64,000 bases of DNA from an uncultured Bacteroidales bacterium. Its GTDB lineage: Bacteria; Bacteroidota; Bacteroidia; Bacteroidales; VadinHA17. Location: positions 461,571-525,570 of the forward strand of contig CAWHSH010000004.1 in NCBI GenBank assembly GCA_963831935.1. Direction: 5' to 3'. Made by a program: the position numbers and the translations under genes. Numbering within the stretch: the stretch's first letter is position 1; the number at the start of each line of letters is the position of its first letter. The notes beneath the pieces were generated by a model, which saw nothing but the letters and a program-made list of their open reading frames with translations, had not been told where the DNA came from and did no database searches. This document shows, one piece after another, positions 41,225 to 61,998 of this stretch.

Positions 41225-41896
41225 ATGGCACTATCTGACTGGCTGGGAAAAAACTGGATTGAAATATTTGGTGCCGTTGCAGGCATAATCTACGTATTTC
41301 TCGAAATAAAGCAAAACCTCTGGTTATGGCCGGTCGGGATAGTCACATCTGCGGTCTACATCCTGGTTTTTTTCACAAGTAAGTTTTATGCAGATATGAG
41401 TCTGCAGGCCTATTACCTGGTTATCAGCTGCCTGGGCTGGTACTGGTGGGTCAAAGGCACAGGGCACAGGGCGCAGGGCTCAGGCAGGAGGAGGAATAGG
41501 AGAAAGGGAGAAGGGGAGATCAGGCATCCGCTCCCGGGAGGGGCCTGGGAAGGGGGTCAGGGGGATGTTAAATTGAAAGTAACCAGATTAAAGCTTCGTA
41601 CCGGGATAATCCTCACGGCTGCTTTTGCCTTAATATATGCGGGCATCTGGCTTATTCTTTCAAGGCTGACTGATTCACCGGTACCGGAATGGGATGCATT
41701 TATTACTTCATTGTCGGTAATTGCAACGTGGATGCTGGCCCGCAAGATCTATGAGCACTGGTATTTGTGGATAGTTGTCAATTCGGTATCATCCGGACTT
41801 TTCCTGTTCAAAGGACTTTATCCAACAGTAGGATTATACCTTATTTACCTGGTGATGTCATTTGCCGGACTGAAGGAATGGAAGCGTTCATTGTGA
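41225..41896 (+). CDS. pnuT: PnuC-family transporter (PnuT-type thiamine transporter) carrying an in-frame repeat insertion
   Basis: PnuC motifs (IFGAVAGIIYVFLEIKQNLWLWPVG, GWYWW). It is the second gene downstream of the TPP riboswitch. The central loop holds about 37 extra G/R-rich residues encoded by repeat DNA. Confidence 0.8.
   Translation: MALSDWLGKNWIEIFGAVAGIIYVFLEIKQNLWLWPVGIVTSAVYILVFFTSKFYADMSLQAYYLVISCLGWYWWVKGTGHRAQGSGRRRNRRKGEGEIRHPLPGGAWEGGQGDVKLKVTRLKLRTGIILTAAFALIYAGIWLILSRLTDSPVPEWDAFITSLSVIATWMLARKIYEHWYLWIVVNSVSSGLFLFKGLYPTVGLYLIYLVMSFAGLKEWKRSL
41455..41572. repeat. Composite family A/B repeat embedded in frame in pnuT
   Basis: The string cacagggcacagggcgcagggc, a purine-rich stretch, then catccgctcccgggagggg..gggggtcagggggatg. 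Same part order as the intergenic composite at 26.05-26.16 kb. Confidence 0.6.
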
Positions 41897-42842
41897 CCGA
41901 TCGCATGTGCATTCATTCGCAGGGAGAATTTCCTGAAGCAGGTTCATCATCACTAACCGATTGTACCGATCATCGATACATTTTCCGCAGGCGGAAAAGC
42001 GGCTCAAATCCCACACGTCTGCAAATACACGTCCCGCATTCAGTTTAAGACCGTATTCCAGAACAGTTTCGAGCGACCGGATAGAGGGTGGTGTAAAGAG
42101 TCCCTTGTTCATCAGGATTTCCATCGCTCCATTCCCTGGCCTTACCGGTATAATAGTGCAGCATTCAACACCCACACTGAAAGCAAAATCGAGCGACCGT
42201 TCTGCCCAGTAAATTCCTTCTGATTCTGTCAGAAATGGGTGGTCTCAGCAGGATGAATGCCCTTGACCGTATTTTATTTTTTAAAAGGAAGCTGACCGAC
42301 TTCGTGAAATCATCAAGAGTCATCTGTTTGTTGAGCTTCGCAAGTATTTCAGGATTGGCAATTTCGAGTCCAAGGGCTATTTGAAGGTCAGGTTTCAGCA
42401 TATCTCTGAAGATCAGGCATTTTTCATTTATCAGCCCTGGATGGCTTTCAACAATAATTGTATCTAATCCGTTGACCAGCGATGCGATTTTTTTATAATC
42501 TTCTTCGGGAATGGCTCCTGTATCAAAGAAGCTTCCGCTGTTATAGAGCTTCAGATGTTTTACAGCAGGAAGGCTTTTCAATGCCCATTCAATCTGGTTT
42601 GGAACGGCACCGGCGGGGACTGTCCTGTCGGTAGTATTTTTCCACAGGTCGCACATCAGGCACCGGAAAGTACATTCACGGTTGGTCAGAAAGATGATTG
42701 CCACATCTTCAATTTTCCCGGAATGGGTTCTTTCCTTTTCGACCAGCCATGCGTAAGGCTTCTGCGGATCGACAGGATTTTTCTTCCCGCGGCTCTCTTT
42801 TATCCAGCTGTTGTTTATTTTCAGATCAGGGATATCATTCAT
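41888..42842 (-). pseudogene. Radical SAM protein, RaSEA/TIGR01210-like, one frameshift
   Basis: CTFRCLMCDLW (Cx3Cx2C). The C-terminal part in a second phase reads ..CCTIIPVRPGNGAMEILMNKGLFTPPSIRSLETVL. Fragments 42165..42923 and 41888..42175. The probable start MNDIPD at 42842 overlaps the upstream stop by 8 nt. Confidence 0.65.
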
Positions 42843-44163
42843 AGTTGGAAAGGAATTCTTTCCTGTAGGTTGTTTCCCGTCCAGGAAAATGCTTTTTGAA
42901 AGCATCCTCCGACGCGGCACCATGCTGAAAGCGTCTTTTTGGGAATACAGGCATAGTTATACCTGTAACTGCTTTTATTCCGTCAGAAACTAGCTGTCCC
43001 TTAAGATCATACAACTTTTTATGATCCCATCCAGTGATATCAATGTAGGGAATACCTTCTGAAATCTCGATAACATTTGGCAGGGTATACGGGCTGAATA
43101 CTTCGAAACCAAGGCTGTCTCCGGTGGCAAATGTTCGCATGTAACCCCTGCTTAATCCACCTGAATAGGTTAATGAGTGTTTAATCGAATCCACTCCCCA
43201 CCCTTCATGGTAAAGCATCAGGTTATTAAGAACACTTCGTATTGTCAGTTCCGGATTCTCCTCGATGGGATAGTCCTTCAGGTTTTCGTCACCGCCTTCT
43301 CCTTCAATAATATACTTCCAGTCGGGATAACGTGACCTTATTCCCTGCATAAGCGATAAATTCATGGTAGCCGATTGTATATCCAGGGGTTTATAGTCTT
43401 CTACAACTTTAATTGCTTTTTTCCAGTCGAGAGTCGAATAATCTGCCTCAACCGGTTCCAGAAAAAGCTCAAGACCAAGGGTTTCAAGAAATTTCCTTGC
43501 CTGTATAAGATCGTCTCCGGCTCCATCGATGCTAAGTGTAAATGCTTTAAGTCTTGAAGGGCTTTCCCCAAGCTCTTTAAGAGCATGATAGGTAAGCAGG
43601 AAGACGCTCCCGCTGTCAATTCCCGCAGAGAAGGCCACTCCTATGGGTCCTGTTTTTGCACGGAACTGCAGCCATTTCCTTATCTCTTTGTATAGGGTCC
43701 TGATGTACAACTCCCCTATTTTTGCGGAATTCTCTGATGAAAAACTATTCCGCTCGGGGCTGAAAAACCGCTCATACACAGGATTGGGGTCAGGACAGCC
43801 AAGCAGTTCAATTTTCGTAATGTAGTGAGCCGGGACCATCCTCGTGTAGGAAGGGTGGAACTGGTCAGCCAGACCTTCCCTTGTGAGATATTCAAAAATT
43901 ACGTCAATACGTTCAGCAACAATCAGATTGGGTCCGTCGGGCCGTTTGGCTATAAAATAACGGATCGGGCGACCGATTGACCGGGCCATCCTTATGGTCC
44001 TGCCATCAACCGAAATAAGTGAAAACTGTCCGTCAATCCTGCGTACCGCTTCACCGTCTCCCGATCTGACAATGTCCACTGCCTGCTCATGCGTCATGTT
44101 ATAGATAACATTCTTTTCCGGATTTGTCAGATCCACCACTTTACTTATGTACTTGTTATTCAT
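42835..44163 (-). CDS. Asparagine synthetase B-like ATP-dependent amidoligase lacking the N-terminal Cys nucleophile
   Basis: PP-loop GVAFSAGIDSGS. AsnB-like N-domain remnant (IDGQFSLISVDGRTIRMARSIGRPIRYF). The N-terminus is MNNKY, not MCG. Confidence 0.7.
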   Translation of the reverse strand: MNNKYISKVVDLTNPEKNVIYNMTHEQAVDIVRSGDGEAVRRIDGQFSLISVDGRTIRMARSIGRPIRYFIAKRPDGPNLIVAERIDVIFEYLTREGLADQFHPSYTRMVPAHYITKIELLGCPDPNPVYERFFSPERNSFSSENSAKIGELYIRTLYKEIRKWLQFRAKTGPIGVAFSAGIDSGSVFLLTYHALKELGESPSRLKAFTLSIDGAGDDLIQARKFLETLGLELFLEPVEADYSTLDWKKAIKVVEDYKPLDIQSATMNLSLMQGIRSRYPDWKYIIEGEGGDENLKDYPIEENPELTIRSVLNNLMLYHEGWGVDSIKHSLTYSGGLSRGYMRTFATGDSLGFEVFSPYTLPNVIEISEGIPYIDITGWDHKKLYDLKGQLVSDGIKAVTGITMPVFPKRRFQHGAASEDAFKKHFPGRETTYRKEFLSNYE

Positions 44164-44176
44164 ATCTGTTCTATGT

Positions 44177-45988
44177 TTAAATTATACCTTTTCCCTGCAA
44201 AATTGTTATATACCTGTCACTCGGGATGTCATTATAAACCTCTACCAGGTCATCTGACCAGAAGATCTCAAGCCTATCGATCATTTGTTCCTTACCGAGT
44301 CCGATATGAAGCCTTGGATCGTTGTTCGAGAGATATGATGTTGCCCATTGATTTACCAGGACCTGTTTCCTGCCTCCTGCAGTAACGGTCACTTTTGCAC
44401 TTATTGCAGAAGCAGGTCCGGATTTGCCTTTAAGTGTCAGGCCAAGCCAGTGATTGCTGTTGCCTCCTTCATTTCTGAGCAGGGAGGCAGTGGCTATAAG
44501 GTCGACATGTGATACTATTATATCCAGGTCCCCGTCATTATCATAATCCCAGACAGCAGCGCCTCTTCCGCTTCGTTTGGTTGAAAAATAAGCACCATGT
44601 TCCCGTCCTGTATTTTTAAAATGTCCGGTACCGTCATTTTCCAGCAGCAGGGGATATTGCAGGATAAGTTCTTCTGCAGTTCCGTTTGCCGCGAAGATAT
44701 CCAGATCACCATCGTTATCATAGTCAAAAAGTGCAGTTGCCCAGGTTCCTTTTCCTGCAAATGCTCCGGCTACACCGCTTGCTTCGGTAATATCGCTGAA
44801 TAGACCGTTCCCCAGGTTTTTGTAGAGTGCACCATATGAGAGATCCGAAACCAGCATATCAATCAGGCCATCCCCGTCAACATCACCGATAGTGCCATGC
44901 ATCGAGCCTGTACCTATTCCCTGGCTGTTTGCAGCCACACCGCTGGCAATTGCTACCTCCTGATATTTTCCATCGTCACACCTGAATAAAAAATTAAGCT
45001 GATGATCATTTGCCTGAAAAATATCAAGATCACCGTCATCATCGTAGTCGAATACTGTAAGGCCCATGCATTTTGAATCGGGATAGTAAAGATTTGCTTT
45101 TTTTGTCACGTCAATAAATTTCCCGTCAGGCTGTTGTTCATAAAGCATGGACGCCTGCCCCTTGTATTCTGATGGATGAGGCATTTTACCCGGTGTTACA
45201 GGCGAATCATAAGCAGGATCAAAGGCCAGGAAATTACCAACCATGGCATCAAGCCTGCCATCAAGGTTATAATCCCAGAAGGAAACGCCGATGCTCCATT
45301 TTGTAAAACCGTTCAGCTTTTCGGGTCCTGTTAACCCAACAGAATTCGTAATATCGGAGAATGTCCCGTTGCCGTTGTTAAGGAAAAATACATTGGGCCC
45401 GTAATTCAGCAAATAGAGGTCCTCATCGCCGTCATTGTCATAATCGATTGCTCCTGCGGCCATACTCCAGTGTGTATCGGCAAGACCTGCCTGTCCGGCT
45501 GTTTCGGTAAATGTTCCGTTCCCGTTATTCCTGTAGAGTCTGTCAGGTGTATCTTTGTAGATAACTCCTTCCGGATCGGAAATGCCTTCAAGATATGTTC
45601 CGTTCATAAGGTACACATCCATTAATCCGTCGTTGTTATAATCAAAAACCGTAACGCCTGAGCCGCTGCTCTCCAGGATATTCACATAACTTTTATCCCC
45701 GAAATTGTATTTGAAATCAATACCGGCGGGAGTTGTGACATCCTTGAAAGCAACACCGGATCTCTCATCAGCCGGGTGAAATGAAATCAATAAAACTGAG
45801 AGGATGAAAATATTTAAGAACTTACTCAGAGAGCGCTTAGAAGCCAAAGAAATCCACTGAGTTAAATAAGAGTCCCTCTGTGTGACTCTGCGCTTCTCCG
45901 TGAATCTCTGTGTAACTAAAAAGCGCTCCTTTTCTTTAATAACCATTGGCTGATTATTCACCTGATTAAAAAATTTTTTACCAGTCAC
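44177..45988 (-). CDS. CRTAC1-family protein (FG-GAP/VCBS repeats + ASPIC/UnbV domain), copy C
   Basis: Repeated DYNNDGxxDxY calcium-type FG-GAP units. C-terminal NHWLGLTLKG..YLSNNDPRLHIGLG..IFWSD. The start is uncertain: either GTG at 45988 (GTGA overlap), or TTG at about 45847 just before the signal-anchor helix. Confidence 0.8.
   Translation of the reverse strand: MTGKKFFNQVNNQPMVIKEKERFLVTQRFTEKRRVTQRDSYLTQWISLASKRSLSKFLNIFILSVLLISFHPADERSGVAFKDVTTPAGIDFKYNFGDKSYVNILESSGSGVTVFDYNNDGLMDVYLMNGTYLEGISDPEGVIYKDTPDRLYRNNGNGTFTETAGQAGLADTHWSMAAGAIDYDNDGDEDLYLLNYGPNVFFLNNGNGTFSDITNSVGLTGPEKLNGFTKWSIGVSFWDYNLDGRLDAMVGNFLAFDPAYDSPVTPGKMPHPSEYKGQASMLYEQQPDGKFIDVTKKANLYYPDSKCMGLTVFDYDDDGDLDIFQANDHQLNFLFRCDDGKYQEVAIASGVAANSQGIGTGSMHGTIGDVDGDGLIDMLVSDLSYGALYKNLGNGLFSDITEASGVAGAFAGKGTWATALFDYDNDGDLDIFAANGTAEELILQYPLLLENDGTGHFKNTGREHGAYFSTKRSGRGAAVWDYDNDGDLDIIVSHVDLIATASLLRNEGGNSNHWLGLTLKGKSGPASAISAKVTVTAGGRKQVLVNQWATSYLSNNDPRLHIGLGKEQMIDRLEIFWSDDLVEVYNDIPSDRYITILQGKGII
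45872..45916. repeat. Solo heptamer array (family A, 4x CTCTGTG-type) inside the cluster
   Basis: The string ccctctgtgtgactctgcgcttctccgtgaatctctgtgtaac. It is translated as VTQRFTEKRRVTQRD within the long version of ORF 44177..45988. Confidence 0.65.
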
Positions 45989-48900
45989 TTTTTCCTGATT
46001 GCATTCAAATACCCATCCGTCGTAACCACCCTTGTATTATACTCCCTGATGAACTTTTGAAGCTCAGGATCATCGGGATACTGATCGCTTTTTGAAGGAG
46101 GATAGCTTTTCATTCCGTGAAACGGAAGAGGCAAAACCGTTTTGCCAGACGCGGTATTAAGATCACCGTCTTTCACCCAACCCACACTGCGGATAAGGAA
46201 ATCCCTTTTCCATCCCTGTTGCAGCGGTGGCAATCCACTGTCAGAAAAAGAAACAGTGGTTTCATCTCCTGCGTTAGTTATAATGTACTTATTGTCAGAC
46301 TCTTTAAGGAGAGTCAGCACATCTCCGTACCTTGTATAATCGCCGGTCAGATCCCGCCATCGGGGTTCACTGCTTACTTCTGAATAATCAAACCAGTGAG
46401 GGCCATATCTTCCTCCCTTCCTGTAACTCCTTGAAAATCCCCTGTAATGCAGATCAGCAGCGACGGGGTCCAGAACATTAGATACAACTGGCTCTGTTGT
46501 CAGGCAATCTGAAAAGAAAATCTGATCCCAGTATATTTCCATATTGGTCCTGATCCGGATCCGGTGATCGGGTGTGGTTATTTTACCCGAGAGGTCCACA
46601 ATAACTGTTTTATCCTTACCCATTGGAAAACCTGGATGATCATTCACCGTTTCCCATTCGCCTTTCTTGTTAATTACCTGGATTACAGGAGGTATAACTT
46701 TAATATCAGATGATTGTGAAACAGCAACATTTATGCTGGCATCGGTAGGGAAAATCCATCCGTTCATAAAGAGAAATACATTTCCTGTGATATCCATGCT
46801 CCCGGGATCAAGAATCAGATCATGCAATTCAGTGATTCCCTGGTATCTTGCTGGCTTTAATCCGGCAATGTAGCTGTCATCCTTTTCAATTATAAACGAC
46901 CGGAGGTCTGTTCCGTTTTCATCTGTTACCGATGCCGGAAAATATTTACCTGCAACACTGTAAATCCTTAATTCCGGAAAAGGGGGAGGAGTAAACTGCT
47001 CTGCAACATAAATTTCCGTTGAAGCTGGATGATCAACTGTAACCAGCTGTAATTTATCGAGATATATTGTCTCCCATAATTCTGATGTTACCTGAATTGA
47101 ATAGATTCCGTTATTCGGTTTCAGTAGTTCCCCGGGTATTTTTAAATAATCATCCGAAGCATCGGGAAATGCATAAACCGTTGTGCCTCCCATAATACCT
47201 GAAGGCATGCCCAGCGCGCTTCTCCACAAAATATCTTTTGCAAAAATATATTCACTGCCATCCCAGGTGTAAAGGAACGGGCATGATCCTTTAAGCATCT
47301 GGGCTTCAATGAGCGACTGGTCGGTTTCGGGAAAGAAGATATTCTGCGGAACGCCGTTGGTCCAGGTAATGCGTATTACATCAGCCTTTGAGCGGCTTCC
47401 AATACCAAAATGAATATTGGGATCAGTGACCACCTTTGTCTGGTACAGATCGCCTGACCGTAATTCTACCTTTGCTCCTATACCGAAGTAGTTATTTTTT
47501 GCACTGCCCGCTCTCAGGCCCACGAGTTTCATGTTTATGAAATGGCCTGCATTACCTCCATCGTTTCTCAAAAGGAATACACCTCCGTTAAGTCCTGCAA
47601 CCACTAAATCGAGATCGCCATCATCATTGTAATCCATAATGGCAATCTGCTTTCCTGATTTGATTTCCTGCGGCAACAGCTGAGACATATCGGTGAAACT
47701 GCCCTTACCGTCATTATGATACAGTAACAATCCCCGTCCGCTCTTTTCTGCTGATTCCCCTGCAAAACAAATATCAAGGAATCCATCGTTGTCAAAGTCT
47801 ATAAATGCGGCATCATAGGCATTTACATTCTGAAGAGCCCTGAATACCTCCTTTGTTTTGCTGTTCTTTTCAAAGGTACCATTTCGCATATTATGGTACA
47901 GTTCATGATTGCCACCATTAATTGAAGTGACAAAAAGATCGAGATATCCGTCATTATCATAATCTCCGGCAGTAACAGCTCCGGAGTTCCCATCACTCTT
48001 CAATCCGCTGCCTGGAGTAATATCCTTATATAATCCCTGACGCTGGTTGGAATAAAGAACATTCCCTGTATTTTTATTTACTACAAAAAGGTCAAGATCA
48101 CCATCTTCATCAAAATCGCCAAAAGCTGCGTCAGTGGTAATAAATTTATCCCCTGCCAAACCCATTTTTGCTGCCTGTTCCTGAAAAGTGCCATCAGAAT
48201 TATTACGGAAAAGCAGGTTTGAATTTGACTCCATTTCAAACAGATCAAGGTCGCCGTCATGATCGGCATCGAAGAACAATGCATTATTGCCTCCGGTTTT
48301 GCTGCCGATTTTTGCACTGTTTGTCACATTCTCAAAAGTTCCTTTTCCTGTGTTGCGATATAATAAATCACCTTCATCCCTCACAATGTACAGGTCGAGG
48401 AATCCGTCATTATCGAAATCAGCAAATGAAGCTGAAGTCTCTTTCCCGGAATGTCTGATACCAGCTTCCGCAGAGACATCATTAAAACTACCCATTTCGT
48501 TTTTTAGAAGATAATGTTTATAAGATGAGGACCCGGGATCATAGCTGCCGGCATAAATGTCGATGTCACCATCCCCGTCGTAGTCGCTCAGGGCAACATG
48601 AGTAGAGTACTTAAAGCCCGGATTTTCACCCTCCCTGAACTCTTTTATAATATCCAGTCCTGCAGAGGCAGATACATAACTGAATTTAATTGCACCTGCT
48701 ACTGATTCAGTTGAAACCGGCTTAAATAAAGACTGCTGGTCGAATGTTATCAGCGGAAAACCGATAAGGGAGCCTCCGGGACCTTTTAAATCCATCATAC
48801 CTGACTGGTAAGGAGATGTGACCTTCAGATAATTGTGAAAAATCGTAAAGTTGGTGATCAGGTTTTCCTTATCCCCGCTCCGCAGGGCGGTCATGGTTTT

Positions 48901-49545
48901 ATCGAAATATTCCGCGGCTTCCTTTGGAAATTCAGGAAACTGTTTCCTGATAGTTTCAAGTTGTTCTATTGCCTTGTCGGAATTTCCCCGCCTGATGTAT
49001 ATTTCAGTCAGATTAAGCTGCGGAACTATATTCCCCGGAGCTTTCTCCACAAGCTTTTGCAGGTACTGTTCACGTTCATTTTGAGATTCTTCATCCGGCC
49101 TGTCAGCGTATATTTCGGTAAGATCGTACAGTGTTTTTATATGATCAGGAGAAGAAACCAGTGCCTCCTTTAATTGTGCTATTGCGTCTTCCGGATCATC
49201 CTTCATCTGGTAGACTGTTGCCAGAATCAACCTGATATCAGGGTCTTTGGGGTCAATCTTTATTGCTTTGAAAAGCGTTTTTTCGGCATCCTGGTATTTG
49301 CCCATCCTTAAATAGGTGAGCCCAAGGTTTGCATATCCCATTTTATCTTTTGGGGAGAGGTCGATGAACTTCAGGAATTCCTTTTCGGCTTCGTCAAGCT
49401 TGAACTCTTCCAGGTATGCCAGACCAAGGGTCCGGACTGTTATCAGATCAGTCGATTTCTGACTGTTTTTTTCCGTCTGGTTCCTGCAACTGATAAGTAT
49501 TGAAATGCAGAAACCTGTCAGTAACAAGAGGCTTAATTTTTTCAT
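45985..49545 (-). CDS. TPR + FG-GAP/VCBS + ASPIC/UnbV lipoprotein with about 450-aa uncharacterised C-terminal domain (CRTAC1-type, copy B)
   Basis: Lipobox ILISCRN. TPR repeats (aa about 40-230). At least 8 FG-GAP units (DFDNDGFLDLY etc.). ASPIC/UnbV region (HFINMKLVGL..IGAKVEL..IRITWTNG). The tail starts at GSCPFLYTWDG. Confidence 0.8.
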   Translation of the reverse strand: MKKLSLLLLTGFCISILISCRNQTEKNSQKSTDLITVRTLGLAYLEEFKLDEAEKEFLKFIDLSPKDKMGYANLGLTYLRMGKYQDAEKTLFKAIKIDPKDPDIRLILATVYQMKDDPEDAIAQLKEALVSSPDHIKTLYDLTEIYADRPDEESQNEREQYLQKLVEKAPGNIVPQLNLTEIYIRRGNSDKAIEQLETIRKQFPEFPKEAAEYFDKTMTALRSGDKENLITNFTIFHNYLKVTSPYQSGMMDLKGPGGSLIGFPLITFDQQSLFKPVSTESVAGAIKFSYVSASAGLDIIKEFREGENPGFKYSTHVALSDYDGDGDIDIYAGSYDPGSSSYKHYLLKNEMGSFNDVSAEAGIRHSGKETSASFADFDNDGFLDLYIVRDEGDLLYRNTGKGTFENVTNSAKIGSKTGGNNALFFDADHDGDLDLFEMESNSNLLFRNNSDGTFQEQAAKMGLAGDKFITTDAAFGDFDEDGDLDLFVVNKNTGNVLYSNQRQGLYKDITPGSGLKSDGNSGAVTAGDYDNDGYLDLFVTSINGGNHELYHNMRNGTFEKNSKTKEVFRALQNVNAYDAAFIDFDNDGFLDICFAGESAEKSGRGLLLYHNDGKGSFTDMSQLLPQEIKSGKQIAIMDYNDDGDLDLVVAGLNGGVFLLRNDGGNAGHFINMKLVGLRAGSAKNNYFGIGAKVELRSGDLYQTKVVTDPNIHFGIGSRSKADVIRITWTNGVPQNIFFPETDQSLIEAQMLKGSCPFLYTWDGSEYIFAKDILWRSALGMPSGIMGGTTVYAFPDASDDYLKIPGELLKPNNGIYSIQVTSELWETIYLDKLQLVTVDHPASTEIYVAEQFTPPPFPELRIYSVAGKYFPASVTDENGTDLRSFIIEKDDSYIAGLKPARYQGITELHDLILDPGSMDITGNVFLFMNGWIFPTDASINVAVSQSSDIKVIPPVIQVINKKGEWETVNDHPGFPMGKDKTVIVDLSGKITTPDHRIRIRTNMEIYWDQIFFSDCLTTEPVVSNVLDPVAADLHYRGFSRSYRKGGRYGPHWFDYSEVSSEPRWRDLTGDYTRYGDVLTLLKESDNKYIITNAGDETTVSFSDSGLPPLQQGWKRDFLIRSVGWVKDGDLNTASGKTVLPLPFHGMKSYPPSKSDQYPDDPELQKFIREYNTRVVTTDGYLNAIRKK

Positions 49546-49574: not shown

Positions 49575-50687
49575 TCACCTGATGATCACTGGTAGTCCAT
49601 CCTTTACCAGCCTTGTTTCAAAATCTCCTGAACGGTTTCCCTTATCGTCAAACTGAACAGTTCCGGTGACGCCAATGAAATTCATACTTGCCAGCGATCT
49701 CTGAATTTTCTCACGATCGGGCTTCCCGGCAATTATAATTGCCCTGATCAGAACATTCATACCATCAAATGAATAGGAAGCGACTATGCCCGGCAATTTC
49801 CCAAAAGCTCTCTGATATTCCTTCCTGAAGGTCAGATTTTCTGATTCCGGCCAATTTCCGGAAGGGACCAAAAGGATGTCGTCATAAACCTGTAATCTCT
49901 GACTTGATAATTCATTTTCATTCAGAAGCATAACTGGTCCGAACAGGAGCTTATCAATTTTTTTCTTCCGGATCTTACCTATTATTTCAACCGAAGCTGA
50001 AGGATTGCAGAATAATATAATACACCTGACCTCTGGTTTACCTATTTCTTCAATTAAAGCATCGGATTTAGTTTCAAAATCATTATAACAATATTGAACC
50101 GGATCGGGTTTCCCTGACATTTTTCCAAGTTTCAGGAAATTGTCTTTCGCCATTTTTGAATCGTAATCATTGCTGTAAATAATGGCTGCCTGTTTGATTT
50201 TTCTTTTATTATATATTTCTTCTATTAGTGATGCAGCCTGTTGGCGGTCGTTTGGAACGCAATTGAAAAACCATGGAACAAATGCCTGTGACAGAGTTGG
50301 ATCAGTTGCCCATGCCGATAAGAATACCACCTGGGATTTTGTTGCGGCCTGTTCCACGAGGTGAGCATTCCTTCCGTCGTGTGATCCGAAAAGTGCCCAG
50401 ACCTTCTCCTCAAAGATAAGGTCTACAGCCTGTTTGGAACCTGTACCCCACGGACCTTCCATTGACCTGGTCACAAGCTGAAAAGGATGTCCATTTAATC
50501 CCCCTGATTCATTAGCCTTTCTGACAGCCATCTCAGCACCCTGTACTGCTGAGGTATATCTGTTGTCCTGAATTAGCAACCCGATTTTTATTGTGCGGTC
50601 TGAATTTCCCGGATCCTGGGAAAAGGTTTTAATGGAGGTTAAAGATATCAGGAGAAAAAGGATCAGGCAGATCTGAAATATTTTCAC
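49575..50687 (-). CDS. LivK-type (Peripla_BP_6) periplasmic substrate-binding protein, orphan
   Basis: Signal peptide. IKIGLLIQ...GGLNGHPFQLV...VWALFGSHDG pattern typical of the branched-chain/aromatic-acid SBP family. No permease or ATPase nearby. Confidence 0.7.
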   Translation of the reverse strand: MKIFQICLILFLLISLTSIKTFSQDPGNSDRTIKIGLLIQDNRYTSAVQGAEMAVRKANESGGLNGHPFQLVTRSMEGPWGTGSKQAVDLIFEEKVWALFGSHDGRNAHLVEQAATKSQVVFLSAWATDPTLSQAFVPWFFNCVPNDRQQAASLIEEIYNKRKIKQAAIIYSNDYDSKMAKDNFLKLGKMSGKPDPVQYCYNDFETKSDALIEEIGKPEVRCIILFCNPSASVEIIGKIRKKKIDKLLFGPVMLLNENELSSQRLQVYDDILLVPSGNWPESENLTFRKEYQRAFGKLPGIVASYSFDGMNVLIRAIIIAGKPDREKIQRSLASMNFIGVTGTVQFDDKGNRSGDFETRLVKDGLPVIIR

Positions 50688-50774: not shown

Positions 50775-51662
50775 TCAGGTATTTTGATCATACTCGTTCT
50801 GATAGATCTCCCTCCCCACTGCCTGTGCTACTTTTCTGAGATCGGCCATCAACTTTGAGAATTCATCCGGACTAAGCGACTGCTGGCCATCGCATAAGGC
50901 TTCTTCAGGTTTATAATGCACCTCCATGATGAGGCCGTCGGCTCCTGCTGCAATTGCAGCTTTTGCCATGGCAGGAACCATCCATCTGTGGCCGGTCCCA
51001 TGACTTGGATCCACAATTACTGGGAGATGACACAGGTGTTTAAGCATCGGGACAGCGCTCAGATCAAGAGTGTTACGGGTAGAAGTCTCAAAAGTCCGTA
51101 TACCTCTCTCGCACAGGATTACCTGGTCATTACCCTGGTTAAGGATATATTCTGCAGCAAGGAGAAACTCTTCAATGCTGGCCATCATGCCACGTTTAAG
51201 CAATACCGGTTTTCGGAGCAGTCCCACTTCCTTTAAAAGCGGATAGTTTTGCATATTCCGCGAGCCGACCTGTAGAATATCAGCATATTCGGCAACCATT
51301 TCAACCAGCCGGGTATCCATTACTTCGGTGACAATAGGCAATCCTGTTTCCTTTCTGGCTTCCCTGAGCAACTTTAATCCTTCCTCTCCAAGCCCCTGGA
51401 AGTTATATGGAGATGAACGTGGTTTGAAAGCACCTCCTCTCAAAATCACTCCCCCCGAAGCCTTTACTGTTTTTGCTGTCTCTATCAGCTGTTCCTGGTT
51501 TTCGACTGAACAAGGTCCGGCAATTATAACAATTTCTGAAGAGCCAATCCGGATTTTACTTATTTTTACTACTGTCGGATCCGGTTTCGACTTGCGGTTT
51601 ACCCTTACCGGAACAGAACATCCTCCAATCATTGCCGGATCATTGTAATGATTTGATTCCAT
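50775..51662 (-). CDS. 3-deoxy-7-phosphoheptulonate (DAHP) synthase, type I-beta, stand-alone
   Basis: [48 protein letters not shown]. No fused chorismate mutase domain. Confidence 0.85.
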
Positions 51663-51682: not shown

Positions 51683-52994
51683 TTAATATCCTGTTCTGGC
51701 TTTTTTATAAATTTTATCACTTTTCTCCAAGGGAGGAGCGGGTGAAAATATAAATTTACCGTTATTGATCTCTGCCATGAATATTGGTCTTATATTGTTC
51801 CAGGTTGCATCAAAGATCACTTTACCCGTAACACCCTGATATCCCTGGAAAGTTTTCATATCTGTAAGAATATCACGGATCAATACCCGGTTTAAGCCCA
51901 CTTTCCGAATGGCTTCAATTATCATGTTCATTCCGTCATAGGCATGTGCGGCAAACACATCCGGCTCCTGGCCAAATCTTTTTAAATAGTTGGCTTTAAA
52001 TGCTTTCAGTTTTGGATCGTTCGCATCGGGATTATACTGGCATGTGGTTACAATGCCTTCGGCCGATTTACCTGCAATACTTAGAAATTCTGCAGATAAC
52101 CATCCTGTCAGAACCATATACCGGTTGGTTCATTCCCAGTTCCCGGATCTGCTTCAGAATCAGAGCCGATTCTTTGGCATTTCCCCAGATCTGAATCGCA
52201 TCCGGTGAGGTTTTCTTTATTCGTTCCAGCTGTTCTTTGAAATCAGTCTCTCCATCGTTGAAACGTTCTTCTATTACCAGGGGAAAGCCTATACGTGTAG
52301 CTGAACGGGTAAAATGCAGGATTCCCACTCTCCCATAACGGTTGTTGGACCTTATTACTGCAACCCTCGAGTGTCCGTCTATTTTAAAAATACGGTTAAC
52401 AAGAGCATAACTGCTTTGCCGGTCATCAGGTATGTTACGAACGACCCATGGTATTGCTGTTTCTGTAAAAGTAGGATCGGGATCACCGGTGTTGACGTTT
52501 GGGATCTCAAGTTTTAAAGTTGCTCTTATTGCAACATGTGACACTATATCATCAATTGATCCCAGCCATGCCCATACTTTTTCATCGTCCATTTTCACTA
52601 CCTCATTTGCAGCAGCACCCCATAGTCCTACATCGTTGTGTATCATCAATTTAAAAGGCAGTCCTTTATAACCTCCCCTCTTATTTGCTTCTTCAATGGC
52701 AAGCATTGATCCCTGAAGCATCTGCTTTCCCAGTGATACTAGGACTGAACCCTCCAGTGGTCCGAGAAAACCTATCCTTACTTCTTTAATGTCAGTCGGA
52801 GGGAGCTTTTCACGACCGGCACCGTAAAACTGTACAGGTTCGAGAAAATGATATTTATAGGCCTTCTGATATTTGTCAAAAGCTACCAGCTCATCCGGTA
52901 TATTGCCATAGTTAACTTTTTTCTCCTGTCCATTGGCAGATGAAAAGGCAGCTAAAAAAATAGAACTTATTAAGATCTTAAATATTGGTTTCAT
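51683..52994 (-). pseudogene. LivK-type periplasmic substrate-binding protein, second orphan copy, one frameshift
   Basis: Fragments 52068..52994 (signal peptide, VRIGFLGPLEG..GGYKGLPFKL) and 51683..52117 lie in different phases. Confidence 0.7.
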
Positions 52995-53003
52995 ATTTAA
53001 AGG

Positions 53004-53600
53004 TTAACTTATTTTACAAATTGCATAAGCTTCAATCTCTACAAGGAGGGTTTCCCAGCATAGCCTTGCCTGTATTCCGGTACTGGCAGGCAAAGGATCC
53101 AGATTCATCCACCTGAAGAAAGAAGTTCTTATTTTGTTGAATTCTTCATAGTCTCTTTCAATATCCCTCAGATAATTAGTGGTCCTGACCACATCATGCC
53201 ATGTCATTCCTTCAGACTGGAGGAGATTTGTTATATTCCTGTAAGTTCTCCAGGTCTGAGCTTTAAAATCACCAATATGTTCTGGTTTGCCATCTTCATT
53301 CACACTGGCTGTTCCGGAAATCAGCAAGGTCTTATAACCACCAAATTCAAGCCGTAACGCCCTGGTAAAGGAGGATGGTTTTTTATAATCATATGCTTCA
53401 TTAATAACCTGCGGAGCATGAACGGAGGCTTTCTCAATGGGAGGCCGTTCCTTATGAACAGCAGGATAGTTGTAGCTGTGAATGAAGGTATCATCTGACA
53501 ACATTCCAAGTTTTGTCATCTCATCACGCTCCCCTTTCGTAAGCTTTGTCAGATCTATTAATAATTGTGTATTCTCTGTTTTATAACCTGGGATTATCAT
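53004..53600 (-). CDS. YjgF/RidA-fold protein with N-terminal extension (chorismatase FkbO/Hyg5-like SGTAS motif)
   Basis: LLISGTASVNEDGKPEHIGDFKAQTWRTYRNITNLL...VEIEAYA. The RidA-type core is preceded by about 70 extra residues. No signal peptide. Confidence 0.55.
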   Translation of the reverse strand: MIIPGYKTENTQLLIDLTKLTKGERDEMTKLGMLSDDTFIHSYNYPAVHKERPPIEKASVHAPQVINEAYDYKKPSSFTRALRLEFGGYKTLLISGTASVNEDGKPEHIGDFKAQTWRTYRNITNLLQSEGMTWHDVVRTTNYLRDIERDYEEFNKIRTSFFRWMNLDPLPASTGIQARLCWETLLVEIEAYAICKIS

Positions 53601-53626: not shown

Positions 53627-54817
53627 TTATCTGAGCAACTCACCCCTGCTGACTCCACTTGAAGTAGCAACCCACAAAACATCATCTTTCGCATCAACAC
53701 CTATAATAAAATTATGTGAAATTGATGGGGAAAGCTGTATTTCTTTCTTTTCAGACCCTGTTGTAATAATTGCTTTACCATTCCGGCTGTTGTCATCTTT
53801 CTTATATGTGACCCATGTTGTGCCGTCAGTACTGCTTAATCCGTTGTCGCTGCATACAAAAACTACCCTGCCTTCAGCTCTCAGGAAATTGATAAAATTG
53901 CTGGCAAGGCCACTGTCTTCTTTAAAATAGCCTTTCCAGTTTTTCCCGTCGTAGCGGCTCATACCGAAGTAGGTCGAGACCCATAATATACTGTCGGCAT
54001 AAGAAGTGGCGGTTGTTATATCATGGACTATGCCATCATCGGGCTGAAGGTCAATTTCCATAAAGCCGTCGGGATCAGTGTAATCCCTGAAATGTCTGGT
54101 TTGTGTATTGTATTCTATCACGCCGCCTCCCCATGCGGCAATCCAGACTTTTCCATCCCCGGCTGACAGGGCATAGGTCCATGGTTCATGCATCGGGGCA
54201 TTCATTTCAGTGAATATTTCCCATTGCCTTGTTTCAGTATCATAATGTCCGGCACCGCCACCAGTGGCAACCCAGATATCTTTTCCGTAGCAAAAAACGT
54301 TGTAAACCAAATCATTTGGCAATCCGCTGTTGAACTGGTTAAAGGTCTCAAATTTACCGCCGGACCAGCGGTTGAGACCTCCCAGTGTTCCGATCCAGAC
54401 ATCACCGGTGAGCTGGCTCACATCTATGGATACAACACCATTATGAGCCAGTCCATCTTTCGTGGTGTATGTATGCCATTTATCATTTTCATAAACTGCG
54501 AGACCATCATGTGTTCCGACAAGTACACGGTTTCCATCAATCCTTACCGTATAGGCTTTGTCTGATGGCAGTCCGTCCTTTGATGTAAAGTTACGCCAGT
54601 GTCCATAAACAGGCATGGCTCTCGCTTCCTTTATTACACCGGAACTATTACCGGGACTGGTATCACTGGTATTTGGCGGGATGCCGGCTATGGATTGATT
54701 ATCCTTCTTTTCAGGCCTTTCATCTCTCACCGGTTTTTTTATTATTATCAAACCTGCCACCACAACAACTATCAGGATTATTGCAGTGATAAAATATTTA
54801 AATGACTTTTTTTTCAT
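53627..54817 (-). CDS. Membrane-anchored two-component-regulator-propeller (Reg_prop) repeat protein without output domain
   Basis: N-terminal TM (ITAIILIVVVVAGLIII). Repeated units VWIGTLGGLNRW / IWVATGGGAGHYD / VWIAAWGGGVIEY / LWVATSSGVSRG. Confidence 0.7.
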   Translation of the reverse strand: MKKKSFKYFITAIILIVVVVAGLIIIKKPVRDERPEKKDNQSIAGIPPNTSDTSPGNSSGVIKEARAMPVYGHWRNFTSKDGLPSDKAYTVRIDGNRVLVGTHDGLAVYENDKWHTYTTKDGLAHNGVVSIDVSQLTGDVWIGTLGGLNRWSGGKFETFNQFNSGLPNDLVYNVFCYGKDIWVATGGGAGHYDTETRQWEIFTEMNAPMHEPWTYALSAGDGKVWIAAWGGGVIEYNTQTRHFRDYTDPDGFMEIDLQPDDGIVHDITTATSYADSILWVSTYFGMSRYDGKNWKGYFKEDSGLASNFINFLRAEGRVVFVCSDNGLSSTDGTTWVTYKKDDNSRNGKAIITTGSEKKEIQLSPSISHNFIIGVDAKDDVLWVATSSGVSRGELLR

Positions 54818-56977: not shown

Positions 56978-56979
56978 AT

Positions 56980-58413
56980 CTATTCCAGTTCTACGATTTT
57001 TTCTTTGATCGCGGTAATATGAACAGGGATGATCACCGGAGCTTTTGTTACAGCAAGGGATACCCTGTTTTCCGGTACCAGTTCAGGATCTTCATGACAA
57101 CCGATACACCCGCGGCGTTCATTTGGGCGTAACCATAACCATGAGCACGGGCCATTTATGACATTTCCTTTTTCATCAAGGGTTCTGATCCGGAATGGAG
57201 TGTCGGCCAAAACTTTTAAATTAAATGAGCCGTCCTTTTCCACCTGAACAATCCCGTAAGTAGTATCGACACCCAGAACTTCAATCTTCCCTGCCTTTGG
57301 CAGATTGCCAGGACCAACCGGCAATAACGGATTAATAAAGTTAATATTCTGGCAAAGCAGTAATCCGGTCTTTACCTGCATATCCACTTCGCTTGGCAGC
57401 TTCTTAGGCATTTCATGCTCCCTCACCTCAGCAACATCCAGAACATTATATTGAGAATCAGAAAAAATTGTTTGCCCGAGTGACTTTTTGACCGGATCAA
57501 AAACAAAAAGAGCAAAATTTTCTAAATCCGATCTTCGGAAAGAAACCAGATATTTGTCCGTATTAAGAGGCATTACATAAAAAAACTCTCCATCGATCCC
57601 GGATGAAATATTTTTGCGTGTATGTAAAGGTCTGTTGTAACTGATCGAGATCACATCTTTTCCTTCTTTATTCCCTTCATCAGTTTCGATAAAAACAATC
57701 CTGCCATCGGTTGTTTCGTTTGCTTTGCTTAACAAAATGCTGCCTTTTTCCGCCTCATAAAACAGGTCGGCTTTGGTTCCGTCGGGGCGCATGACTTTTA
57801 ACATTGGAGTGCCCGTTTCCGGCATCACTGGCATGCTTAATGTCAGCAGCCTGCCATCCTTTAGAACAGAAGTAACAATGTTGGTCTGAGGACTGAATGT
57901 TATCTGTTTCAGGCCGGAGCCATCGGGATTACATGTAAAAAGGCAATGTGCTTTCTTCACAGTGTCATTGACAGTCAGTTTACTGAATACCAGTCGTCCG
58001 CCCGGCAGATAGGCCGGATCAGTGCAGTCTTCTCTGAATGACCTGATTTTTCTGGATTTAAGATTAACAAGCTCCATCTCCCAGATCTGCCAGGGATCGT
58101 TTGCATTCTGCTGTGCCGCAAAAAGCATGAATCGGCCGTTAAATGAAATTTCAGGAAAGGAGGCAGAATAAAAATCTTTCGTAAGGACCTTAAATGATGC
58201 AGGTTTATCGGGATTGAATGCGACTATCCGTGCCCCGGGCAAATATCGCCGGGATTCACCGGAGATATAATCATGATCCTGAATTTTACCCGGATACTCA
58301 GTTGCCACCAGCATCCCGCTTCTAACTGATTTTCCCCTGCATGAAAGTAAAATCACAGAGGAGATACTTATGCAAGCTGCGCTGAGTATGATAGTTGTGC
58401 GATTAATTTTCAT
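56980..58413 (-). CDS. HzsA-like lipoprotein: TolB/PD40-type propeller + C-terminal mono-haem (CIGCH) domain
   Basis: Lipobox ILLSCRG. PD40-like blades. C-terminal GPCSWLWLRPNERRGCIGCHEDPELVPEN resembles, from memory, the hydrazine-synthase alpha middle-domain family. Confidence 0.6.
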   Translation of the reverse strand: MKINRTTIILSAACISISSVILLSCRGKSVRSGMLVATEYPGKIQDHDYISGESRRYLPGARIVAFNPDKPASFKVLTKDFYSASFPEISFNGRFMLFAAQQNANDPWQIWEMELVNLKSRKIRSFREDCTDPAYLPGGRLVFSKLTVNDTVKKAHCLFTCNPDGSGLKQITFSPQTNIVTSVLKDGRLLTLSMPVMPETGTPMLKVMRPDGTKADLFYEAEKGSILLSKANETTDGRIVFIETDEGNKEGKDVISISYNRPLHTRKNISSGIDGEFFYVMPLNTDKYLVSFRRSDLENFALFVFDPVKKSLGQTIFSDSQYNVLDVAEVREHEMPKKLPSEVDMQVKTGLLLCQNINFINPLLPVGPGNLPKAGKIEVLGVDTTYGIVQVEKDGSFNLKVLADTPFRIRTLDEKGNVINGPCSWLWLRPNERRGCIGCHEDPELVPENRVSLAVTKAPVIIPVHITAIKEKIVELE

Positions 58414-58422
58414 GAACCAGTG

Positions 58423-61907: not shown

Positions 61908-61998
61908 AGTTGTTTCACCGTAAATATCTTAATCCCGGATTTCGGATTTGGAAATCAGGGAATAAATCCGAAATCTGCAATCCGGAACTAGTTTATCC

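What the first reader, a model, noticed from the sequence alone, without database searches (positions are those of the whole stretch)
41888..44163. Translationally coupled AsnB-like amidoligase (no glutaminase Cys) + RaSEA/TIGR01210-like radical SAM enzyme
Seen in sequence: the 442-aa AsnB homologue keeps the PP-loop (SAGIDSGS) and a remnant N-domain but starts MNNKY rather than MCG. It therefore cannot hydrolyse glutamine. Its stop overlaps by 8 nt (ATGAATGA) the start of a radical SAM gene. That gene has CTFRCLMC and a C-terminal GLFTPPSIRSLETVL segment.

Established knowledge: Cys-less AsnB homologues, such as beta-lactam synthetase, carbapenam synthetase and lasso cyclases, adenylate a carboxylate and form amide or lactam bonds. 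Archaeal RaSEA (TIGR01210 family) cleaves a lysine adduct to leave an amidine in archaeosine synthesis.

Inference: this looks like a ligate-then-radical-cleave or rearrange pair that installs an amide or amidine on an unknown substrate. I know of no characterised bacterial pair of this kind.
Basis: partly seen in the sequence, partly recalled or inferred. Interest (0 to 1): 0.65.

Follow-up and report, generated by a model that had tools for sequence, protein, structure and literature searches.

The report
Conserved amide-ligase plus radical-SAM enzyme pair
Two overlapping genes, an ATP-using asparagine-synthetase-like ligase without its glutamine-splitting part and a radical SAM enzyme distantly related to the archaeal archaeosine enzyme RaSEA, form a widespread, uncharacterised enzyme pair that sits at the end of a conserved 12-gene cluster encoding hydrazine-synthase-like haem proteins in Bacteroidota.

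Summary
A 442-aa Asn_synthase-family protein (42835-44163, minus strand) has no N-terminal Cys. Its stop overlaps by 8 nt (ATGAATGA) the start of a radical SAM gene (41888-42842), which a 1-nt frameshift breaks.

The rSAM's best curated match is TIGR01210/RaSEA, but at 105 bits against a cut-off of 212. It is a sister family, not RaSEA.

The pair is not chance. The rSAM lies directly downstream in 77 of 80 genome loci across Bacteroidota, Chlorobiota and Planctomycetota, and 59 of 76 keep the exact 8-nt overlap. Members with only 35-45% rSAM identity still keep the AsnB-like partner.

The frameshift is one extra base in a C run. It is absent from a 94%-identical contig and from contigs of two independent runs, so it is probably an assembly error.

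The pair ends a conserved 12-gene cluster of FG-GAP/UnbV lipoproteins, hydrazine-synthase alpha- and beta-gamma-like haem proteins, binding proteins, a DAHP synthase and a RidA-like protein. In Planctomycete-type loci a flavoprotein is coupled downstream instead.

No curated family, solved structure or paper describes the pair. "Ligate, then radical N-C cleavage" is the best analogy (ArcS-RaSEA, MnmL/YhcC) but is untested, and the substrate is unknown.

The parts
42835..44163 (-). AsnB-like ATP-dependent amidoligase, 442 aa. Cytoplasmic, with no N-terminal Cys. PP-loop SAGIDSGS at 179-186, GEGGDE at 287-293, KRRFQHG at 409-415. Conserved family-specific N-domain with invariant Cys123 in a GCPDP motif.
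   Evidence: PF00733 at 44.1 bits. hhalign to E. coli AsnB 211-401. 117 invariant residues over 11 diverse members. More than 8000 homologous 90%-identity clusters.
41888..42842 (-). RaSEA-like (TIGR01210-related, below threshold) radical SAM enzyme, 317 aa when read through. CxxxCxxC at C57/C61/C64. C-terminal CxxC...CxC motif.
   Evidence: TIGR01210 at 105 bits against a cut-off of 212. Intact homologues at 84% identity. 413 representative clusters at E<=1e-30. Family invariants.
42835..42842 (-). 8-nt stop/start overlap ATGAATGA, indicating translational coupling.
   Evidence: The same 8-nt overlap (ATGARTRR) is present in 59 of 76 related loci.
42236..42238 (.). GGG run carrying the 1-nt insertion that breaks the rSAM frame. 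Probably an assembly error.
   Evidence: L091 has one base fewer. Contigs of runs X1 and X3 show 'left out 1' at 42236.
44177..45988 (-). FG-GAP/UnbV_ASPIC (CRTAC1-like) exported protein, 603 aa. Lies 13 nt upstream of the ligase.
   Evidence: Pfam. Adjacent in 73 of 80 genome loci.
45985..49545 (-). TPR + FG-GAP + UnbV lipoprotein, 1186 aa.
   Evidence: Pfam. Conserved position.
49575..50687 (-). Periplasmic binding protein (Peripla_BP_6), 370 aa.
50775..51662 (-). Type I-beta DAHP synthase paralogue, 295 aa.
   Evidence: PRK08673 at 458 bits. Conserved in the cluster.
51683..52994 (-). Second periplasmic binding protein. Split into two ORFs in the window, but a single 436-440 aa gene in relatives.
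53004..53600 (-). RidA/YjgF-family protein with an N-terminal extension, 198 aa.
53627..54817 (-). Exported beta-propeller protein (weak Reg_prop match), 396 aa.
54941..56977 (-). Hydrazine-synthase beta-gamma-like protein: beta-propeller plus CCP/MauG-like haem c domain. Three CxxCH motifs.
   Evidence: hydrazine_BC at 243 bits against a cut-off of 1250. Pfam.
56980..58413 (-). Hydrazine-synthase alpha-like lipoprotein with one CxxCH motif.
   Evidence: PF18582 HZS_alpha at 67 bits. hydrazine_alpha at 86 bits against a cut-off of 800.
58423..60123 (-). First FG-GAP/UnbV protein of the cluster, 566 aa.

Best explanation
**Shown**
These are two cytoplasmic, translationally coupled enzymes that form one deeply conserved functional module. 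The first keeps the AsnB synthetase core: a PP-loop, a GEGGDE motif and a KxxFxxG motif. It has no glutaminase nucleophile or detectable glutaminase domain. It should therefore adenylate a carboxylate and pass the acyl group to an amine that does not come from glutamine hydrolysis. The second is a [4Fe-4S]/SAM enzyme of a large bacterial sister family of archaeal RaSEA.

**Inferred**
By analogy with ArcS-RaSEA and with MnmL/YhcC, the two act as a complex. The ligase attaches an amine donor, such as an amino acid, to the activated carboxylate. The radical SAM enzyme abstracts an H atom next to that nitrogen. The N-C bond is then cleaved, leaving a primary amide or amidine. This would be an O2-independent and glutamine-independent way to install nitrogen.

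**Inferred from context**
The product or substrate serves the conserved periplasmic machinery encoded with the pair: FG-GAP/UnbV lipoproteins, hydrazine-synthase-like haem proteins and binding proteins. A small molecule is somewhat favoured over a protein, possibly a shikimate-derived acid supplied through the cluster's DAHP synthase and RidA-like genes. The reason is that both enzymes are conserved at 53-62% identity between phyla.

In this window the rSAM frameshift is most likely a sequencing artefact, so the pair is probably intact in the organism.
For: **Family assignment.** PF00733 at 44 bits. hhalign to AsnB 211-401, including SxGxDS and GEGGDE. The best structural matches are ASNS, carbapenam synthetase and AsnB. 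The rSAM scores 105 bits to TIGR01210, and ten diverse family members all have TIGR01210 as best hit, with TIGR01212 (MnmL) a weak further hit in two of them (P0280, P0373) and in the window protein at 12.8 bits.

**Conserved pairing.** 77 of 80 genome loci. The 8-nt overlap is present in 59 of 76. Divergent representatives (L088/89, L090, L172, L173, L174) still have the ligase upstream.

**Catalytic residues invariant.**

**Precedents.** ArcS is active only in complex with RaSEA, transfers lysine, and RaSEA then yields the amidine (PMC11298593). MnmL/YhcC removes the carboxymethyl group from cmnm5s2U anaerobically (bioRxiv 10.64898/2026.05.18.725915).

**Cluster linkage.** The same 12-gene order appears in L133, L150 and L155. 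A permuted order, with the pair directly upstream of FG-GAP-HZS-alpha-HZS-beta-gamma, appears in 10 genome loci. An rSAM-FG-GAP/UnbV fusion protein, P0344, is seen in two runs.

**Frameshift is an artefact.**
Against: - No substrate, product or activity is known. The ligate-then-cleave order is pure analogy.
- The rSAM is well below the RaSEA and MnmL cut-offs, so its chemistry may differ.
- The partner is not ArcS-like.
- Some rSAM family members lack an adjacent ligase (L085, L086/87). One ligase lacks an adjacent rSAM (L074).
- Three cluster contigs lack the pair (L153, L159, L160).
- The ligase could simply use free ammonia, which would leave the rSAM another role.
- The AlphaFold model of the ligase is poor (pLDDT 54). 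The active site could therefore not be inspected.
Confidence: 0.35

Rival explanations
1. **Protein or peptide maturase.** The pair post-translationally modifies one of the exported cluster proteins (FG-GAP/UnbV, HZS-like or a binding protein) in the cytoplasm before export. In Planctomycete-type loci the downstream flavoprotein would take part too. The ligase would make an isopeptide or lactam bond or a side-chain amide, and the rSAM a cross-link. This would resemble QhpD/QhpG in quinohaemoprotein amine dehydrogenase, or anSME for sulfatases.
For: - The pair is tightly linked in an operon to exported proteins.
- An rSAM-TM/lipobox-FG-GAP fusion exists.
- The flavoprotein coupled downstream in L076, L079, L088, L090 and L173 weakly matches the CTQ maturases QhpG, LodB and GoxB.
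- The HZS-beta-gamma-like protein has MauG/CCP-like features (PMC12758564).
- Cys-less AsnB homologues include lasso cyclases (established knowledge).
Against: - Identity between phyla of 53-62% is unusually high for maturases of lineage-specific proteins.
- No precursor peptide ORF or RRE/PqqD domain is nearby.
- Planctomycete-type loci have no FG-GAP or HZS gene adjacent.
- The flavoprotein matches are far below cut-offs (69 bits against 240).
Confidence: 0.25
2. **RNA (tRNA/rRNA) modification module.** Like ArcS-RaSEA, MnmL and Elp3, the pair would modify a nucleoside. The PP-loop enzyme would adenylate a base or side-chain carboxylate.
For: - The nearest characterised rSAM relatives (RaSEA, MnmL, Elp3) all act on tRNA.
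- PP-loop ATPases are common in tRNA modification (established knowledge).
- High sequence conservation fits a universal macromolecular substrate.
Against: - The genomic context is consistently periplasmic-protein clusters, not translation genes.
- Distribution is patchy and the pair is absent from most model bacteria.
- No RNA-binding domain (PUA, THUMP, TRAM) was detected.
- No 7-deazaguanine genes are nearby.
Confidence: 0.1
3. **Lactam-forming synthetase plus tailoring rSAM.** This would be logic of the beta-lactam synthetase or carbapenam synthetase type, for a secondary metabolite.
For: - Carbapenam synthetase is among the top structural matches.
- Cys-less AsnB homologues BLS and CarA make lactams (established knowledge).
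- A DAHP synthase paralogue in the cluster resembles precursor-supply genes of natural-product clusters (BagF/FevY at 344 bits, below the cut-off).
Against: - No crotonase, 2OG oxygenase, NRPS/PKS, exporter or resistance gene is in the cluster.
- The rSAM is not a B12-type enzyme.
- Conservation and breadth (thousands of clusters across phyla) are atypical for an antibiotic cluster.
Confidence: 0.05
4. **Dead in this strain.** The frameshift is real and the rSAM is a recent pseudogene.
For: The window sequence as given has the extra base.
Against: - Contigs that are 95-99% or more alike, from two independent runs, lack the extra base, as does a 94%-identical contig.
- Several other genes in the window carry uncompensated single-base insertions.
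- Both halves of the gene keep full-length conservation.
Confidence: 0.08

Closest known systems
ArcS-RaSEA (archaeosine synthase complex, Euryarchaeota; TIGR01210)
   Same: A group-transfer or ligase enzyme is paired with a TIGR01210-type radical SAM enzyme. The rSAM shares the fold and 105 bits of HMM similarity. The gene coupling suggests a complex. The likely logic is to attach an amine donor and then cleave it radically.
   Different: The rSAM scores less than half the equivalog cut-off. The partner is an AsnB-type PP-loop adenylating enzyme, not a TGT/PUA-type ArcS. The organisms are bacterial. There are no preQ0/ArcTGT genes. The genomic context is periplasmic haem and FG-GAP proteins.
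MnmL/YhcC (TIGR01212) tRNA cmnm5s2U demodification rSAM
   Same: It is a related Elp3-like rSAM subfamily and appears as a weak secondary HMM hit. It catalyses O2-independent N-dealkylation.
   Different: Scores are only 13-26 bits against a cut-off of 180. MnmL has no ligase partner and no cluster context of this kind.
Asparagine synthetase B and its Cys-less relatives (beta-lactam synthetase, carbapenam synthetase, lasso cyclases)
   Same: PP-loop, GEGGDE motif and Pfam PF00733 membership. The best structural matches are ASNS, CarA and AsnB. The glutaminase Cys is absent, as in BLS, CarA and McjC.
   Different: No detectable glutaminase-like N-domain. There is instead a ~150-aa family-specific N-domain with an invariant Cys. 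TIGR01536 scores 36 bits against 267. There are no PDB hits by sequence or by profile. The obligate partner is an rSAM. None of the companions typical of lasso or beta-lactam clusters are present.
Hydrazine-synthase-homologue clusters in non-anammox bacteria (clade III of PMC12758564)
   Same: The window cluster has FG-GAP (CRTAC1-like), then alpha-like, then beta-gamma-like with one extra haem motif, followed by two substrate-binding proteins. This matches what that paper describes.
   Different: The main text of that paper has no occurrence of 'asparagine', and 'radical' appears only in its reference list. The function of these clusters is unknown.

Membership tests
Asn_synthase superfamily (PF00733, AsnB C-terminal synthetase domain) | Pfam gathering score reached | tested here: met
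   44.1 bits against a cut-off of 21, residues 172-304.
Asn_synthase superfamily (PF00733, AsnB C-terminal synthetase domain) | PP-loop SxGxDS and the GEGxDE motif aligned to AsnB | tested here: met
   hhalign places SAGIDS against SGGLDS and GEGGDE against GEGSDE. The motifs are invariant in 11 diverse members.
Glutamine-hydrolysing asparagine synthase (TIGR01536 asn_synth_AEB) | N-terminal Cys nucleophile directly after Met1 | tested here: not met
   The protein starts MNNKY. The ORF cannot extend upstream. No homologue starts MC.
Glutamine-hydrolysing asparagine synthase (TIGR01536 asn_synth_AEB) | Detectable class-II glutaminase domain and equivalog score | tested here: not met
   36.4 bits against a cut-off of 267. 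No GATase Pfam hit at E<=10. The N-terminal 150 aa score no better than shuffles against AsnB.
RaSEA (TIGR01210 equivalog) | Radical SAM CxxxCxxC cluster motif | tested here: met
   C57, C61 and C64 are conserved in 97-99% of 78 family members.
RaSEA (TIGR01210 equivalog) | Equivalog HMM cut-off | tested here: not met
   105 bits for the window protein and 42-113 bits for 10 diverse members, against a cut-off of 212.
RaSEA (TIGR01210 equivalog) | ArcS partner and preQ0-tRNA pathway genes | tested here: not met
   The partner is AsnB-like in 77 of 80 loci. No ArcS/TGT-like gene is in the window cluster.
RaSEA (TIGR01210 equivalog) | Physical complex with the partner enzyme | not testable with these tools
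   Only indirect evidence is available: the conserved 8-nt overlap.
MnmL/YhcC (TIGR01212) | Equivalog HMM cut-off | tested here: not met
   12.8-26 bits against a cut-off of 180.
Lasso peptide cyclase system | Adjacent precursor peptide, leader peptidase (B) and RRE | tested here: not met
   No such ORFs or domains are in the window cluster or in related loci.
Carbapenam / beta-lactam synthetase clusters | Companion enzymes such as CarB crotonase or CarC / 2OG oxygenase | tested here: not met
   None in the cluster. The only link is a low-TM structural resemblance to CarA.
Hydrazine synthase (context genes) | [quoted passage not shown] | tested here: not met
   Alpha scores 86 bits against 800. 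Beta-gamma scores 243 bits against 1250. These are homologues only.

The most novel reading that the evidence does not exclude
The pair is a previously unrecognised bacterial counterpart of ArcS-RaSEA. It would be an oxygen-independent and glutamine-independent nitrogen-installing machine: adenylate a carboxylate, attach an amino-acid amine, then cut the N-C bond by radical chemistry. Its product would be the dedicated cofactor, substrate or protein modification of the hydrazine-synthase-like haem complex of non-anammox bacteria. That would tie an unknown branch of periplasmic nitrogen or redox chemistry to a new radical SAM reaction.
Probability: 0.15. Interest if true: 0.85.

Novelty: new variant of a known kind. 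Interest (0 to 1): 0.6.

Why it matters
Both proteins belong to large families. Each has more than 8000 clusters at 90% identity, and the rSAM family has 413 representative clusters at E<=1e-30. Neither has a curated model, a solved structure or a paper.

The pair is one of the most constant parts of a gene cluster that was noted only in 2025 as the nearest non-anammox relative of hydrazine synthase, and whose function is unknown. Working out the pair's chemistry would do three things:
- add a new reaction type to the RaSEA/MnmL branch of radical SAM enzymes;
- show how a Cys-less AsnB homologue obtains its nitrogen;
- give the first biochemical handle on the hydrazine-synthase-like cluster.

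Cultured carriers exist (Maribacter, Lutibacter, Lutimonas), so the question can be tested directly.

Tried and rejected
- **PDB by sequence.** phmmer and profile searches found no relatives of either protein.
- **rSAM structure search.** The model (pLDDT 79.5) returned only generic rSAM folds: MgmA, Elp3, PflA, LipA. This does not discriminate between functions.
- **Ligase structure.** The model was poor (pLDDT 54), so the N-domain fold and active site could not be read.
- **N-domain as a glutaminase remnant.** Tests were negative or inconclusive.
- **KRRFQHG against AsnB RQK449EQFSDG.** The match is seen only by eye. Local alignment of the C-terminal regions did not recover it.
- **Literature.** Searches for TIGR01210, COG1244, RaSEA with asparagine synthetase, UnbV/CRTAC1 with radical SAM, and related terms found no description of the pair.
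- **Expression.** No metatranscriptome run holds the locus.
- **Rejected readings.** QueE- or PflA-type assignment (no such HMM hits). Lasso or beta-lactam cluster (no companion genes). Phage or mobile element (no such genes around the pair).
- **RaSEA sequences.** None were obtained. They fall outside the top 150 representative hits, so no residue-level comparison with true RaSEA was made.
Full report
**1. What is in the sequence**

On the minus strand, ORF 42835..44163 encodes a 442-aa protein starting MNNKY. This is the first start codon after an in-frame stop, so there is no hidden upstream Cys.

The protein matches Pfam Asn_synthase (PF00733) at 44.1 bits against a cut-off of 21, over residues 172-304. 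It matches the asparagine synthase equivalog TIGR01536 at only 36 bits against 267.

Its stop codon overlaps the ATG of the next gene as ATGAATGA, at 42835-42842. That gene carries the radical SAM motif CTFRCLMC and matches PF04055 weakly.

The rSAM reading frame breaks near 42236. The C-terminal 95 residues, including GLFTPPSIRSLETVL, continue in ORF 41888..42175. Read through, the 317-aa protein scores 105 bits (E 4e-30) against TIGR01210/RaSEA, whose cut-off is 212. The next hits (PhpK, HpnJ, MnmL, ArsL) are below 17 bits.

**2. The frameshift**

The window reads CCACCCATTT on the gene strand. A 94%-identical short-read contig, L091, reads CCACCTTTT and encodes an intact 317-aa protein.

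Logan contigs from two independent public runs, X1 and X3, are 95-99% or more alike and lack one base at 42236.

Against L091 the window also carries further uncompensated single-base insertions:
- two lie in a TonB-dependent receptor gene, at 39586 and 39892; that gene is intact (810 aa) in L091;
- a periplasmic binding-protein gene is split in two.

All 77 related genome loci with an rSAM match gave it as a single tblastn alignment; two of these are cut short by the contig end (L051, L078). The break is therefore most probably an assembly or homopolymer error. A strain-private pseudogene is not excluded.

**3. Is the pairing more than chance?**

Each protein has at least 8000 homologous clusters at 90% identity. 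The ligase is unusually conserved: the best 120 hits are 80-100% identical.

In 80 genome loci found with the ligase, the rSAM lies directly downstream in 77. The loci come from Bacteroidales, Flavobacteriaceae (including cultured Maribacter, Lutibacter and Lutimonas), Cytophagales, Chlorobiota, Marinimicrobia and Gemmataceae.

The three exceptions are:
- a contig end (L060);
- a truncated ligase (L053);
- one Marinimicrobia locus, where an FG-GAP gene follows the ligase (L074).

In 59 of 76 loci the exact 8-nt overlap ATGARTRR is kept.

An exhaustive HMM search of 1.84 billion representatives found 2222 rSAM relatives at E<=1e-3 and 413 at E<=1e-30. Ten diverse members all have TIGR01210 as best curated hit, at 42-113 bits.

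For representatives only 35-45% identical to the window rSAM, the ligase is still the upstream neighbour wherever there is enough sequence to tell: L088/89, L090, L172, L173 and L174.

**4. Anatomy of the two proteins**

*Ligase.* Across 11 diverse members, 117 of 442 positions are invariant. These include:
- the PP-loop (S179, G181, D183, S184);
- G288-x-G290-G291-D292-E293, which hhalign places on AsnB GEGSDE;
- K409-R-R-F-Q-x-G415, which by eye resembles AsnB RQK449EQFSDG, although local alignment did not confirm this.

The N-terminal ~150 residues are just as conserved, and contain an invariant Cys123 in a GCPDP motif. They show no detectable similarity to the AsnB glutaminase domain. The 'remnant N-domain' is therefore unverified.

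The AlphaFold model was poor (pLDDT 54). Its confident core nevertheless found ASNS, carbapenam synthetase and AsnB first.

*rSAM.* Over 78 sequences, the following are conserved at 96% or more:
- C57, C61 and C64;
- Q83, K98, Y100 and N101;
- E132 and H134;
- G158 and E160;
- K172, R194 and R234;
- D275 and W277.

A C-terminal CxxC...CxC motif is present in about 80% of members, which suggests a Zn or auxiliary Fe-S site. The model (pLDDT 79.5) matched only generic rSAM folds.

Neither protein has an N-terminal hydrophobic signal, read directly from the sequence. Both are therefore cytoplasmic.

**5.

The pair is the 3' end of a co-directional 12-gene cluster running from 60123 to 41888. In order, the genes are:

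1. FG-GAP/UnbV
2. hydrazine-synthase alpha-like (PF18582)
3. hydrazine-synthase beta-gamma-like (beta-propeller plus CCP/MauG-like di-haem domain)
4. an exported beta-propeller
5. a RidA-like protein
6. a binding protein
7. DAHP synthase
8. a second binding protein
9. TPR/FG-GAP/UnbV
10. FG-GAP/UnbV
11. the ligase
12. the rSAM

The same order recurs in metagenome contigs. It is complete in L133, L150 and L155. The 3' half recurs in L081 and L082.

In 10 genome loci the order is permuted, so that the pair lies directly upstream of FG-GAP-HZS-alpha-HZS-beta-gamma. Two different arrangements that keep the same genes together argue for a functional link.

An 896-aa protein, P0344, fuses the rSAM domain through a lipobox/TM-like segment to an FG-GAP/UnbV domain. 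It is found in two independent runs.

The pair is not obligatory for the cluster. L153, L159 and L160 lack it.

A 2025 paper describes exactly this kind of cluster as clade III: FG-GAP/CRTAC1, alpha, beta-gamma with one extra haem motif, then two substrate-binding proteins. It presents them as hydrazine-synthase homologues of unknown function in non-anammox bacteria. Its main text has no occurrence of 'asparagine', and 'radical' appears only in the reference list (PMC12758564).

In Planctomycete-type loci (L076, L079, L088/89, L090, L173) the FG-GAP/HZS genes are absent. Instead a ~500-aa flavoprotein is translationally coupled downstream of the rSAM. It weakly matches halogenases, QhpG, LodB/GoxB and aromatic hydroxylases.

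**6. How it most likely works**

*Shown.* This is an adenylating AsnB-type core without a glutaminase, obligatorily coupled to an rSAM whose nearest characterised relatives are RaSEA and, more distantly, MnmL/YhcC.

*From the literature.*
- ArcS is active only in complex with RaSEA. It transfers lysine to preQ0, and RaSEA then converts the adduct to the amidine (PMC11298593).
- MnmL/YhcC removes a carboxymethyl group from a secondary amine under anaerobic conditions. The FAD- and O2-dependent enzyme MnmC does the same aerobically.

*Inferred.* The ligase activates a carboxylate and attaches an amine donor. The rSAM abstracts an H atom alpha to that nitrogen, and the N-C bond is lost. A primary amide or amidine remains.

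The downstream flavoprotein in Planctomycete-type loci could be an aerobic counterpart of this step or an added hydroxylase. This is speculative.

*The substrate is unknown.* Two observations favour a small, possibly shikimate-derived metabolite: the high conservation between phyla, and the co-clustered DAHP synthase and RidA-like genes. Three observations keep a protein-maturation role alive: the operon link to exported proteins, the fusion protein and the QhpG-like flavoprotein. An RNA target is possible by family precedent but has no support from context.

**7. Comparison and novelty**

The pair works most like ArcS-RaSEA but is not a member of that family. The HMM cut-off and the partner type both fail.

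The ligase belongs to the Asn_synthase superfamily. It is not a glutamine-hydrolysing asparagine synthase, a lasso cyclase system or a beta-lactam synthetase system.

No curated family, structure or paper describes the pair. I rate it a new variant of a known kind: a ligase plus a RaSEA-like radical SAM enzyme. Interest is raised by its breadth, its conservation and its link to the hydrazine-synthase-like cluster.

**Verdict.** Interest 0.6.

Noticed in passing
window 54941-60123 (- strand): FG-GAP/UnbV, a hydrazine-synthase alpha-like protein (PF18582) and a beta-gamma-like protein (three CxxCH motifs, CCP/MauG-like) lie together. They match the 'clade III' HZS-homologue clusters of PMC12758564. 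All scores are far below the hydrazine synthase cut-offs.
   Followed up: partly
window 39586, 39892, 51683-52994, 42236-42238: Several genes are broken by uncompensated single-base insertions relative to a 94%-identical contig (L091): the TonB-dependent receptor at 38775-41209, one binding protein and the rSAM. This points to an error-prone, probably long-read, assembly.
   Followed up: partly
L086 8142-10832 and L087 8136-10826 (protein P0344): An 896-aa protein fuses an rSAM domain of this family, through a lipobox/TM-like segment (KRKPLNLLARLLVIALFGC), to an FG-GAP/UnbV domain. An identical protein is found in two runs. No AsnB-like gene is nearby.
   Followed up: partly
L088 8609-12500; L079 5989-9639; L076; L090; L173: In Planctomycete-type loci the pair is followed by an overlapping gene for a ~500-aa FAD-dependent protein. 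It weakly resembles halogenases (CmlS), QhpG, LodB/GoxB and aromatic hydroxylases. No homologue is present in the window.
   Followed up: partly
L054 8286-11994; L057; L061: In three Bacteroidales loci the pair is followed by a Peptidase_S58 (DmpA-like), a URO-D family protein and a creatininase-family amidohydrolase. SusC/SusD and FG-GAP genes lie upstream on the other strand.
   Followed up: no
window 43795-43809 (residues 122-126 of the ligase): An invariant Cys sits in a GCPDP motif inside the family-specific N-domain of the ligase. It is conserved from Bacteroidota to Planctomycetota, and its role is unknown.
   Followed up: no
window 41888-41990 (rSAM C-terminus): A C-terminal CxxC...CxC motif (C285, C288, C311, C313) is conserved in about 80% of the rSAM family. 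It is absent from one Gemmataceae homologue (L079). It may be a Zn or auxiliary Fe-S site.
   Followed up: partly
window 41225-41896 (+ strand): A pnuC (nicotinamide riboside transporter) gene converges on the rSAM gene and overlaps its 3' end by 9 nt. The same arrangement is in L091. The PnuC protein has a basic, Gly-rich insertion of about 50 aa that splits the HMM match in two.
   Followed up: no
window 60531-62619 (- strand): A histidine kinase and response regulator pair lies directly upstream of the 12-gene cluster on the same strand. It may regulate the cluster. Its conservation was not checked.
   Followed up: no
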